NCBI RefSeq assembly: GCF_029227855.1
Contig: NZ_CP074356.1
Reading direction: 5' to 3' (one strand)
Origin: Escherichia coli
Lineage (GTDB): Bacteria > Pseudomonadota > Gammaproteobacteria > Enterobacterales > Enterobacteriaceae
Length of the DNA stretch: 64,000 nt
In this document: piece after piece, positions 57,001-59,355 of the stretch
Layout of the letters: each line of letters starts with the position of its first letter
Numbering within the stretch: position 1 is the stretch's first letter
Position numbers: made by a program

Positions 57001-59355
57001 CGCCAGACCATCGAAGAATTACTGGCACTGGAATTGCTTTAACTGCGGTTAGTCGCTGGTTGCATGATGACTTGCCTCCAGCGACGGAGTTGACACTGAA
57101 TGGCGACGTACCAGCGTCGGACTAAAGACATTAGTGATTTCCGGGAGAGGGCGATTATCCGCCAGTGCCAAAGCCAGTTCGGCAGCCTGCGTCGCCATCG
57201 TCACGATTGGGTAACGCACGGTGGTCAGGCGCGGACGCACATAGCGTGACACCAGCACATCATCAAAGCCAATTAACGAAATCTCACCCGGTACATCAAT
57301 ACCATTATCATTGAGAACGCCCATCGCACCCGCCGCCATTGAATCGTTATAACAGGCTACCGCAGTGAAATTTCTGCCTCGTCCCAAAAGCTCGGTCATT
57401 GCCTGTTCGCCGCCGCTTTCGTCTGGTTCGCCAAATGTCACCAGCCGGTCATTGGCCGCAATACCACTTTCAGCAAGGGCATCGTAATACCCTTGCAGAC
57501 GATCTTCGGCGTCAGAAATAGAGTGGTTAGAACACAGATAACCAATGCGGGTATGACCTTGCTGAATTAAATGACGCGTTGCCAGCCAGGCACCGTAACG
57601 ATCGTCCAGAGCAATACAACGGTTTTCAAAGCCAGGCAGGATACGGTTGATCAGCACCATACCGGGCATTTGTTTCATTAATGAGGCTAAATCGGCATCC
57701 GGTATCATTTTGGCATGGACGACCAACGCAGCACAGCGATGGCGGATCAGTTGCTCAATAGCCTGACGCTCTTTTTGTTCGTTGTGGTAACCGTTGCCAA
57801 TCAATAAAAAATTACCAGTGTGATAAGCCACCTGTTCGACCGCTTTCACCATTGCACCGAAAAACGGATCGGAAACATCACCAACGACCAGACCGACCGT
57901 TTCAGTGGTCTGCTGCGCCAGCGCACGGGCGTTGGCGTTCGGGTGATAGCTAAGAGACTCCATTGCACTATGCACAGCAAGCCGTGAAGCTTCGCTGGCT
58001 TTGGGTGAATTATTAATGACGCGGGAAACGGTGGCGACTGAAACGCCTGCCAGTCGGGCTACATCCTTTATGGTCGCCATGAAAATACCTTAGTGGGTAA
58101 ACGCTTACATTCTTTCAGTGTTACGGAAAACGCCCGTTGGTTCAAGGGGTGGCGTGTTTTCATCGTGGGAATGTGAGCCAAACGCAAATAAGTAAGACAA
58201 AAAAAGAGATTGCAAACCTTTGGTTACACTTTGCGAAACGCTGTTGCGATTGACCGCTGGTGGCGTTTGGCTTCAGGTTGCTAAAGTGGTGATCCCAGAG
58301 GTATTGATAGGTGAAGTCAACTTCGGGTTGAGCACATGAATTACACCAGCCTGCGCAGATGCGCAGGTTTTTTTTTGCCGGTCATCAATCTGTAACAGTA
58401 ACCGACAATTTACACACCTCGTTGCATTTCCCTTCATTCCTTTGCGTTTTCTCGCTGGCGAAGAGTCGTCGTGCAGACCACAATCAAGATCCCAGAGGTA
58501 TTGATTGGTGAGATTATTCGGTACGCTCTTCGTACCCTGTCTCTTGCACCAACCTGCGCGGATGCGCAGGTTTTTTTTGTGCACAGAAAACCCCCAGCTA
58601 GGCTGGGGGTTCCGGAAAGCTTTCAGCTTTGAGCCAGTTATTAAAACCCCTTTTGATTTGTTAAAACACTTTGCGGTCTGGCAACTGCAAGTGTCAAACA
58701 AGAAATCAAAAGGGGGTCCCAATGGGGAACGAAAAGAGCTTAGCGCACACCCGATGGAACTGTAAATATCACATAGTTTTTGCGCCAAAATACCGAAGAC
58801 AGGTGTTCTACAGAGAGAAGCGTAGAGCAATAGGCAGTATTTTGAGAAAGCTGTGTGAGTGGAAAAGCGTACGGATTCTGGAAGCTGAATGCTGTGCAGA
58901 TCATATCCATATGCTTGTGGAGATCCCGCCCAAAATGAGCGTATCCGGGTTTATGGGATATCTGAAAGGGAAAAGCAGTCTGATGCTTTACGAGCAGTTT
59001 GGTGATTTGAAATTCAAATACAGGAACAGGGAGTTCTGGTGCAGAGGGTACTACGTCGATACAGTGGGTAAGAACACGGCGAAGATACAGGATTACATAA
59101 AGCACCAGCTTGAAGAGGATAAAATGGGAGAGCAGTTATCGATTCCCTATCCGGGCAGCCCGTTTACGGGCCGTAAGTAACGAAGTTGGATGCAAATGTC
59201 AGATCGTGTGCGCCTGTTAGGGCGCGGCTGGTAAGAGAGCCTTATAGGCGCATTTGAAAAACCTCCGGCTATGCCGGAGGATATTTATTCGCACCTAATT
59301 TACTGTCGCTCGCGTTCTTTATCTCGTGTAATCTCCCTCCATTCGCTTTTACTGA

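What the first reader, a model, noticed from the sequence alone, without database searches (positions are those of the whole stretch)
58294..58578. Tandem paralogous sRNAs OmrB and OmrA with shared 5' and 3' ends
Seen in sequence: two ~85-nt units ~200 bp apart both begin CCCAGAGGTATTGAT and end with the CCTGCGC-GATGCGCAGG-poly(T) terminator, while their central parts differ. Established knowledge: OmrA/OmrB are OmpR-activated sRNAs that repress outer-membrane protein mRNAs through the conserved 5' end. They are intact here next to the IS200 insertion.
Basis: partly seen in the sequence, partly recalled or inferred. Interest (0 to 1): 0.25.

Follow-up and report, generated by a model that had tools for sequence, protein, structure and literature searches.

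The report
OmrB and OmrA small RNA genes
These are the well-known E. coli regulatory small RNA genes omrB and omrA, letter-for-letter identical to the laboratory K-12 strain, with a small mobile element (IS200) inserted just after the end of omrA without damaging it, so the finding is correct but ordinary.

Summary
The observation and the interpretation are both confirmed. Window 58294-58375 (+) is OmrB (82 nt) and 58491-58578 (+) is OmrA (88 nt). Both match Rfam RF00079 end to end at 86.1 and 96.6 bits, against a gathering score of 40. Both are 100% identical to the annotated omrB (b4445) and omrA (b4444) of E. coli K-12 MG1655.

The galR-to-omrA stretch, promoters included, matches K-12 apart from one extra T after the OmrB terminator. 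The gene order is galR(-) | omrB | omrA | IS200C | aas | lplT.

The segment occurs in 5423 of 5426 complete E. coli genomes. Across 61 distinct Enterobacterales homologues the terminator stem is paired in every case, and three of its pairs show compensatory changes.

The 711-bp IS200C (58579-59289) begins on the base after the eighth T of the OmrA terminator, so the sRNA, its hairpin and its U-tail are intact. This exact arrangement is rare (8 of 5426 genomes). Another 34 genomes, including CFT073, carry IS200 right after the OmrB terminator.

In 11 of 11 independent sites examined, the IS200C left end directly follows an intrinsic terminator.

Function (OmpR-activated, Hfq-dependent repression through the 5' seed) comes from the K-12 literature and was not tested here. 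Verdict: already known, low interest.

The parts
58294..58375 (+). omrB, encoding the 82-nt sRNA OmrB: 5' seed, central hairpin, terminator hairpin and U-tail. The T-run here is 9 T (58368-58376) against 8 in K-12, so the 3' end may lie at 58375 or 58376.
   Evidence: Rfam RF00079 at 86.1 bits, E=2.3e-15, full model. 100% identical to K-12 b4445. Fold -26.6 kcal/mol, z=-2.9.
58491..58578 (+). omrA, encoding the 88-nt sRNA OmrA: the same 5' seed and terminator as OmrB, with an OmrA-specific central hairpin GGTACGCTCTTCGTACC.
   Evidence: Rfam RF00079 at 96.6 bits, E=6.4e-18, full model. 100% identical to K-12 b4444. Fold -29.5 kcal/mol, z=-2.7.
58294..58314 (+). Conserved 5' end of OmrB (CCCAGAGGTATTGATAGGTGA), the single-stranded target-pairing seed.
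   Evidence: 20 of 21 positions identical to OmrA. Left unpaired in the Rfam consensus over positions 1-15. The 5' end is required for control of all targets tested in K-12 (PMC2588501).
58491..58511 (+). Conserved 5' end of OmrA (CCCAGAGGTATTGATTGGTGA), the target-pairing seed.
   Evidence: Same as for the OmrB seed.
58348..58376 (+). OmrB intrinsic terminator: a 9-bp stem with loop AGAT, followed by T9.
   Evidence: Terminator scan. Stem paired in 100% of 61 homologues, with 3 compensatory pairs.
58551..58578 (+). OmrA intrinsic terminator: a 9-bp stem with loop GGAT, followed by T8. IS200 starts on the next base.
   Evidence: Terminator scan, covariation, junction compared with the K-12 empty site.
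58180..58293 (+). omrB promoter region (-114 to -1). The -10 element is TAAAGT at 58282-58287 and there is no good -35, as expected for an activator-dependent promoter.
   Evidence: Identical to K-12. The K-12 -114 to +50 fragment is activated by OmpR-P in vitro (PMC5175337). The -10 was read directly from the sequence. The consensus sigma-70 scan finds nothing here.
58377..58490 (+). omrA promoter region (-114 to -1). The -10 element is CACAAT at 58479-58484, with C at -12 and -13, the feature the literature links to sigma-S dependence.
   Evidence: Identical to K-12. OmpR-P activation in vitro is reported in PMC5175337. The -12 C and RpoS dependence are described in PMC12692685. Sequence read directly.
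58579..59289 (+). IS200C insertion sequence, 711 bp. It is not part of the sRNA system but defines its 3' boundary. Its parts are the left-end terminator hairpin (58590-58611), the 5'UTR stem-loop (58647-58715), tnpA (58722-59180) and the right-end hairpin (59262-59280).
   Evidence: Absent from the K-12 empty site. Rfam RF01405 at 144.6 bits. tnpA is annotated as an IS200C family transposase in a record with 1 mismatch in 7221 nt. Full-length 711-bp copies occur at many other loci.
57047..58081 (-). galR, the left flanking gene, transcribed divergently from omrB. The 1,035-nt span brackets the annotated 1,032-nt gene and is approximate to within 2-3 bases: mapping the L001 annotation gives 57049-58080, while the reverse complement of the start codon is CAT at 58078-58080.
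   Evidence: Annotation of the near-identical record and of K-12.
59377..61536 (+). aas, the right flanking gene. It starts 87 nt after the IS200 right end, the same 87 nt that separate omrA from aas in K-12.

Best explanation
The region holds the two paralogous Hfq-dependent sRNA genes omrB (58294-58375) and omrA (58491-58578) of Escherichia coli, in their normal place between galR and aas.

Each gene is its own transcription unit. It starts at the C of CCCAGAGG and ends at its own intrinsic terminator.

By identity with K-12, both promoters are activated by phosphorylated OmpR. omrA additionally depends on sigma-S, and omrB responds to RstA supplied in multicopy.

The single-stranded 5' end, about 15-21 nt and nearly identical in the two RNAs, pairs with the translation-initiation regions of target mRNAs with the help of Hfq. 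Targets include ompT, cirA, fepA, fecA, csgD, flhDC and ompR itself. Pairing blocks translation and leads to RNase E-dependent decay. Repression of ompR closes a negative feedback loop.

The divergent central hairpins give each RNA some targets of its own, for example btuB for OmrA.

The IS200C element landed one base after the OmrA U-tract. It leaves the RNA, its terminator and its promoter unchanged.

Shown here: sequence identity, family membership, structure and covariation, synteny, and the insertion point. Inferred from the literature on the identical K-12 sequences: regulation, Hfq dependence, targets and expression.
For: - Family membership: Rfam RF00079 matches both units over the full model at 86.1 and 96.6 bits, against a gathering score of 40.
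- Identity: both units are 100% identical to K-12 omrB b4445 (82 nt) and omrA b4444 (88 nt). The galR-to-omrA stretch is identical apart from one extra T in the OmrB T-run.
- Synteny: lysA-galR | omrB-omrA | aas-lplT, as in K-12.
- Distribution: core to the species, found in 5423 of 5426 complete genomes, with 5304 at 99% identity or more.
- Homologues: 61 distinct sequences from Citrobacter, Enterobacter, Kosakonia, Pluralibacter, Serratia, Pantoea, Erwinia, Dickeya, Edwardsiella and others. Of 48 loci, 22 carry two copies, mostly 188-220 nt apart.
- Structure: the terminator stem is 100% paired, with compensatory changes at 3 pairs (22 cells). No shuffle or slid control comes close.
- Terminator polarity (hairpin then T-run) fixes the + strand.
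- Literature for these sequences: PMC2588501 (5' end, ompT, cirA, ompR, Hfq, RNase E), PMC5175337 (direct OmpR-P activation in vitro), PMC13425233 (aas-galR organisation, RpoS, RstA) and PMC12692685 (lengths 88 and 82 nt, divergence after nt 21).
Against: No result contradicts the identification. The limits are these.

- No expression data exist for this strain.
- The simple sigma-70 consensus scan finds no promoter upstream of either gene. That is expected for activator-dependent promoters with poor -35 elements.
- Folding energy alone does not pick the strand, because the reverse complements fold equally well (z = -2.9 and -4.6).
- The invariance of the 15-nt seed among the 61 homologues is by construction, because that 15-mer was the search pattern.
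- The four GGTG/CACC pairs never vary, so they neither support nor oppose the outer stem.
Confidence: 0.97

Rival explanations
1. The genes are intact in sequence, but the IS200C insertion changes how they work. The base after the OmrA U-tract changes from C to G, and a second, bidirectional terminator (the IS200 left-end hairpin) now lies 11 nt downstream. Read-through could therefore give 3'-extended OmrA species or OmrA-IS200 chimeras. Alternatively, aas could lose transcription that came from upstream.
For: The insertion abuts the terminator exactly. The IS200 left end carries a bidirectional rho-independent terminator at nt 12-34 (PMC4513863), which corresponds to 58590-58611 here. The right end also carries a terminator-like hairpin, found on both strands. 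Only 87 nt separate the IS from the aas start codon.
Against: The hairpin and the full 8-T tract, which determine intrinsic termination and Hfq binding, are unchanged. The 87 nt upstream of aas are also unchanged. The same type of insertion persists in 8 genomes after omrA and in 34 genomes after omrB, which argues against a strong cost.
Confidence: 0.1
2. The two units are only duplicated intrinsic terminators or repeat elements, resembling OmrA/B by chance or as decayed relics, and are not functional sRNA genes.
For: The strongest shared block is the terminator (35 nt at 91%). No consensus promoter was detected.
Against: The match covers the full model, not only the terminator. Both units and their promoters are 100% identical to the experimentally characterised K-12 genes. 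The segment is conserved at 99% or more in 5304 E. coli genomes. The 5' seed plus GGTG is retained in distant genera whose central regions have diverged completely.
Confidence: 0.01
3. The units encode small peptides rather than acting as non-coding RNAs.
For: OmrB contains an ATG (58336), giving MNYTSLRRCAGFF... in frame 0.
Against: That frame runs through the terminator and has no stop codon inside the transcript. OmrA has no equivalent frame. The central region that would be coding is the least conserved part, with indels not in multiples of three.
Confidence: 0.01

Closest known systems
omrA (rygA, b4444) and omrB (rygB, b4445) of E. coli K-12 MG1655
   Same: Identical RNA sequences (88 and 82 nt), identical promoter regions, and the same order and orientation between galR and aas.
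   Different: One extra T in the OmrB terminator T-run (9 against 8). A 711-bp IS200C lies between omrA and aas that K-12 lacks.
Rfam RF00079 OmrA-B family in other Enterobacterales (Citrobacter, Enterobacter, Serratia, Pantoea, Edwardsiella and others)
   Same: The 5' seed CCCAGAGGUAUUGAU-N-GGUG, the CACC closing element, a terminator with compensatory changes, and a frequent tandem pair about 190-220 nt apart.
   Different: Central hairpins differ in sequence and length. In this sample 26 of 48 loci showed a single copy with the exact seed, and in Pantoea the two copies lie about 2 kb apart. PMC13425233 reports that single-copy species keep the omrB promoter.
E. coli CFT073 and 33 other genomes with IS200C after omrB
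   Same: The same locus, the same IS (0 mismatches in 711 for CFT073) and the same orientation. Again the left end sits directly on the end of an sRNA terminator T-run.
   Different: The insertion lies between omrB and omrA, 114 nt upstream of the omrA start, rather than downstream of omrA as in the window.
IS200 of Salmonella, and art200/STnc490
   Same: [quoted passage not shown]
   Different: This is the E. coli IS200C variant. It is a neighbour of the finding, not part of it.

Membership tests
OmrA-B sRNA family (Rfam RF00079) | Covariance-model score at or above the curated gathering score (40 bits) over the full model | tested here: met
   96.6 bits (58491-58578) and 86.1 bits (58294-58375), model positions 1-87 of 87, + strand.
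OmrA-B sRNA family (Rfam RF00079) | Conserved single-stranded 5' end CCCAGAGGUAUUGAU(N)GGUGA used for target pairing | tested here: met
   Present at the first base of both units, with 20 of 21 positions identical between them. Unpaired in the Rfam consensus and in the OmrA minimum-free-energy fold. Pairing to targets was not tested.
OmrA-B sRNA family (Rfam RF00079) | Rho-independent terminator (GC-rich hairpin plus U-tail) at the 3' end, supported by covariation | tested here: met
   Terminator scan hits at 58348-58369 and 58551-58572. 8 pairs are 100% paired across 61 sequences, and 3 pairs show changes on both sides.
OmrA-B sRNA family (Rfam RF00079) | [quoted passage not shown] | tested here: met
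   galR(-) | omrB | omrA | [IS200C] | aas(+). This organisation is described in PMC13425233.
OmrA-B sRNA family (Rfam RF00079) | Identity to the experimentally characterised genes | tested here: met
   Exact string match to K-12 b4445 and b4444.
OmrA-B sRNA family (Rfam RF00079) | Transcription activated by EnvZ-OmpR (and by sigma-S for omrA) | not testable with these tools
   Only indirect evidence. The -114 to -1 DNA of both genes is identical to the K-12 fragments that OmpR-P activates in vitro (PMC5175337). The omrA -10 element CACAAT has the C at -12 and -13 cited for sigma-S.
OmrA-B sRNA family (Rfam RF00079) | Hfq binding and Hfq/RNase E-dependent repression of ompT, cirA, ompR and other targets | not testable with these tools
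   Taken from the literature on identical sequences (PMC2588501). The terminator hairpin plus U8 tail, the usual Hfq-binding module, is intact.
IS200 (IS200/IS605 family), the neighbouring element | About 707-711 bp, a single Y1 transposase gene, structured left and right ends, no terminal inverted repeats and no target duplication | tested here: met
   A 711-bp insert relative to K-12, with no duplication beyond an ambiguous TT. tnpA is annotated as IS200C family. The left end matches RF01405 at 144.6 bits. Full-length copies occur elsewhere.

The most novel reading that the evidence does not exclude
The sRNA genes themselves hold nothing new. The most novel reading left open concerns the neighbour.

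IS200C may use intrinsic terminators (a hairpin plus T-run, co-oriented) as its landing site. The OmrB and OmrA terminators would then be recurrent targets. At least three independent insertions have occurred in this 600-bp locus, and 11 of 11 independent sites examined follow a terminator.

Such insertions might rewire the locus. Possible effects are read-through OmrA-IS200 5'UTR chimeric RNAs, a changed upstream context for the omrA promoter in CFT073-type strains, or polarity on aas.

A statistical enrichment of terminators upstream of IS200/IS605 elements has already been reported in a preprint (10.1101/2025.07.22.666184). Only the base-precise targeting and any effect on OmrA/B would be new.
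Probability: 0.15. Interest if true: 0.4.

Novelty: already known. Interest (0 to 1): 0.08.

Why it matters
It matters little as a discovery. OmrA and OmrB have been studied since 2006, and these copies are identical to the K-12 reference.

It is useful as annotation. RefSeq/PGAP leaves these two genes unannotated in every non-K-12 record seen here: searches of the segment report 'none' under the match.

It also shows that the IS200 insertion in this strain spares both sRNAs. That is relevant to anyone studying envelope, iron-uptake, motility or biofilm regulation in IS200-rich extraintestinal E. coli lineages.

The side observation is a tidy lead for transposon biology: the IS200C left end sits exactly on terminator T-runs, repeatedly at this locus. 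It is partly anticipated in the literature.

Tried and rejected
- Consensus sigma-70 promoter scan of 58000-59450. It found no promoter upstream of either sRNA. I rejected this as evidence against the genes, because both promoters are activator-dependent and identical to the functional K-12 promoters.
- Strand assignment from folding energy. The reverse complements fold as well as or better than the sense strands, so this is uninformative. The strand was assigned from terminator polarity and the covariance model instead.
- Genome-wide scan with the bare 15-mer. Only 48 of the 120 loci carried copies that passed the seed+GGTG and terminator-tail filter; the other 72 lacked those features and I treated them as chance matches, without checking each one. 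Three that had passed a looser T-run filter (L024, L041, L109) were dropped at this step. No species census can therefore be drawn from this scan.
- Aligning the central regions across genera. The alignment there is unreliable, so covariation was counted only for the outer stem and the terminator.
- Small-ORF reading of the sRNAs. Rejected.
- The count of 42 genomes with 80% or more of the omr+IS query. I first took this to mean 42 genomes share the window's arrangement. Junction-specific searches showed that only 8 do, and that 34 have the IS after omrB.
- The Rfam STnc490 hit as evidence for an art200 gene on the + strand. Rejected, because the literature places art200 antisense to tnpA.

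Full report
**Observation**

The sequence at 58294-58578 reads as the first-stage reader described. Two units begin CCCAGAGGTATTGAT. The direct-repeat search reports this as a 24-nt family at 58291-58314 and 58488-58511, 96% identical and 197 nt apart.

Both units end in CCTGCGC(A/G)GATGCGCAGG followed by a T-run. This is a 35-nt family at 58341-58375 and 58544-58578, 91% identical.

A pairwise alignment shows that the 5' 21 nt differ at one position, the 3' 35 nt at three, and the centres are unrelated with a 6-nt length difference. The terminator scan reports both hairpin-plus-T-run sites on the + strand. It finds 5 such sites in the 1.45-kb region, against 1.5 expected from shuffles.

**Identity**

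A scan of the whole window against Rfam 15 at gathering thresholds gives four hits:

| Coordinates | Strand | Family | Score | E-value |
|---|---|---|---|---|
| 58491-58578 | + | RF00079 OmrA-B | 96.6 bits (gathering score 40) | 6.4e-18 |
| 58294-58375 | + | RF00079 OmrA-B | 86.1 bits (gathering score 40) | 2.3e-15 |
| 58589-58712 | + | RF01405 STnc490 (the IS200 left end) | 144.6 bits | 1.7e-29 |
| 19693-19763 | + | tRNA | 71.6 bits | 1.1e-13 |

Both OmrA-B hits cover model positions 1-87 of 87.

The K-12 MG1655 record annotates omrA (b4444, 88 nt) and omrB (b4445, 82 nt) between aas and galR. Exact string comparison shows window 58294-58375 equals K-12 omrB and window 58491-58578 equals K-12 omrA.

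The galR-aas intergenic region matches K-12 apart from two differences:
- one extra T in the OmrB T-run (9 T at 58368-58376 against 8);
- a 711-bp insertion after the OmrA T-run.

**Context**

The window is E. coli. It differs at 1 of 7221 positions from NZ_AP045174.1 (strain JNEC-KY178) across lysR-lysA-galR-[omrB-omrA]-IS200C tnpA-aas-lplT. PGAP does not annotate the two sRNAs in that record.

The 285-nt omrB-omrA segment is found in 5423 of 5426 complete E. coli genomes. 5371 genomes hold 80% or more of it, and 5304 match at 99% or more.

**Relatives and structure**

Filtering for the seed plus GGTG and a terminator tail kept 48 loci. Where the record title names a genus, the kept loci are Enterobacterales; a few are metagenome bins labelled only 'Proteobacteria bacterium'. 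The other 72 loci lacked those features and I treated them as chance matches, without checking each one; the listing includes titles from archaea, cyanobacteria and Bacteroidota, among others. The 48 loci hold 63 distinct sequences. Of the 48, 22 carry two copies, usually 188-220 nt apart.

In an alignment of 61 sequences, the eight terminator pairs are paired in 100% of cells. Three pairs show changes on both sides: U-A to C-G, G-C to A-U, and C-G to U-A, in 22 cells. No shuffle reaches the observed covariation score, and all slid controls collapse.

The four GGTG/CACC pairs never vary and so say nothing either way. Invariance of the seed in this set is by construction, since the seed was the search pattern.

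Single-sequence folds give -26.6 kcal/mol for OmrB and -29.5 kcal/mol for OmrA (z about -2.9 and -2.7). The reverse complements fold equally well, so energy does not determine the strand. Terminator polarity and the covariance model do.

**Mechanism**

This part is inferred from the literature on the identical K-12 sequences.

- The genes are separate transcription units in the aas-galR region. The 5' and 3' ends are nearly identical and the centres differ (PMC13425233; PMC12692685).
- OmpR-P activates both promoters in vitro on -114 to +50 templates (PMC5175337). Those 114 nt are identical in the window.
- omrA also depends on RpoS, which is ascribed to a C at -12 of its -10 element. The window reads CACAAT at 58479-58484, preceded by C at -13. 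omrB reads TAAAGT at 58282-58287.
- RstA in multicopy activates omrB specifically.
- The conserved 5' end pairs near the translation start of ompT and cirA in an Hfq- and RNase E-dependent way. A mutation in it abolishes control of all targets tested. ompR is itself a target, which gives autoregulation (PMC2588501).

None of this was or could be tested here. What is shown is that every sequence element those experiments used is present and unchanged.

**The IS200 neighbour**

Comparison with K-12 places the insert at 58579-59289 (711 bp), beginning on the base after the eighth T of the OmrA terminator. There is no target duplication, apart from a 2-nt TT ambiguity.

This start agrees with the published IS200 map, which places the left-end bidirectional terminator at nt 12-34 (PMC4513863). 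That corresponds to 58590-58611 here.

Copies of exactly 711 bp, with 0-28 mismatches to the window's copy, occur at other loci. IS200C matches are present in 3096 of 5426 genomes.

OmrA therefore keeps its hairpin and U8 tail, and the 87 nt upstream of aas are also unchanged.

**How common is this arrangement?**

I first read as showing 42 genomes with the window's arrangement. That was wrong.

In CFT073 the IS lies after the OmrB terminator, between omrB and omrA. Junction-specific searches give 8 genomes with the omrA-IS200 junction. One search gives 42 genomes for the omrB-IS200 query. Eight of those are the omrA-type genomes, joined from two pieces, which leaves 34 with a true omrB-IS200 junction.

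Two pig isolates carry a divergent IS (28 mismatches in 711), with four extra bases (ATTT) between the OmrA T-run and the IS left end. At least three independent insertions have therefore hit this 600-bp locus. Each lies at or within 4 bases (the ATTT in the pig isolates) of the end of an sRNA terminator T-run, and each is in the sRNA's orientation.

**Terminator adjacency elsewhere**

Ten further IS200C copies were examined at ten unrelated loci. Eight of them lie downstream of a co-oriented gene (yggN, gndA, guaA, ybfA, yfeX, htpX, emrB, plaP).

All ten have a stable hairpin (-13.7 to -25.5 kcal/mol) plus a T-rich run immediately 5' of the left end.

[quoted passage not shown] The trend is therefore not new, although the base-precise pattern and the recurrent use of the Omr terminators may be.

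I infer, but did not test, that the single-strand transposase of this family recognises a T-rich target presented next to a hairpin. The element's own right end has that form (hairpin 59262-59280 followed by ATATTTATT).

**Verdict**

The feature is the already known omrB-omrA pair, intact. Interest is low. The only mildly new material is the side observation on IS200C insertion sites.

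Noticed in passing
window 58579-59289, compared with L124-L133 and L135-L137: The IS200C left end sits directly after an intrinsic terminator (hairpin plus T-run, same orientation) in 11 of 11 independent sites examined. The galR-aas locus has been hit at least three separate times: after OmrA in 8 genomes, after OmrB in 34 genomes including CFT073, and by a divergent IS in 2 pig isolates. A preprint already reports the statistical trend for IS200/IS605 elements.
   Followed up: partly
window 58589-58712 (+): Rfam RF01405 'STnc490' matches the strand that is sense to tnpA and includes the left-end terminator hairpin. The literature describes STnc490/art200 as a 90-nt RNA antisense to the tnpA 5'UTR (PMC4513863). 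The Rfam hit identifies the IS200 left end, not the strand of the sRNA.
   Followed up: partly
L123 (NZ_OZ039818.1) 1288-1670; about 52 E. coli genomes: About 52 complete E. coli genomes hold less than 80% of the omrB-omrA segment. The one inspected has only omrB, joined straight to the sequence that normally follows omrA. This is a clean loss of omrA, as expected from recombination between the near-identical terminators.
   Followed up: partly
window 58368-58376: The OmrB terminator T-run is 9 T here against 8 in K-12. E. albertii and several Citrobacter also have 9. Probably neutral length variation.
   Followed up: yes
L128 (NZ_CP018115.1), right flank of the IS: A second IS200 left end (GTGCACAGAAAACCCCC...) starts 3 bases after the right end of the first copy, which suggests tandem IS200 copies. 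That would fit the element's own right end (hairpin plus T-rich tail) mimicking its target. The locus shows only about 27 bases of the second copy.
   Followed up: no
window about 19,700-44,000: By position in the near-identical record, a tRNA-Gly (19692-19765) is followed by a type III secretion gene cluster (eivF, sctC, sctN, escV/R/S/T/U-like, prgH-like, ygeH and others). I recognise this as the ETT2 island; that name comes from my own knowledge and is not in the annotation. In that record sctC and the yscQ-like gene are annotated as frameshifted.
   Followed up: no
L030 and L059 (Pantoea): In Pantoea the two seed-bearing copies lie about 2.03 kb apart rather than about 200 nt. One copy is unusually short (76 nt), with an A/T-rich centre.
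   Followed up: no
RefSeq records: PGAP annotation lists no feature for omrA or omrB in any non-K-12 E. coli record seen ('none' under the match). These core sRNA genes are systematically unannotated there.
   Followed up: no
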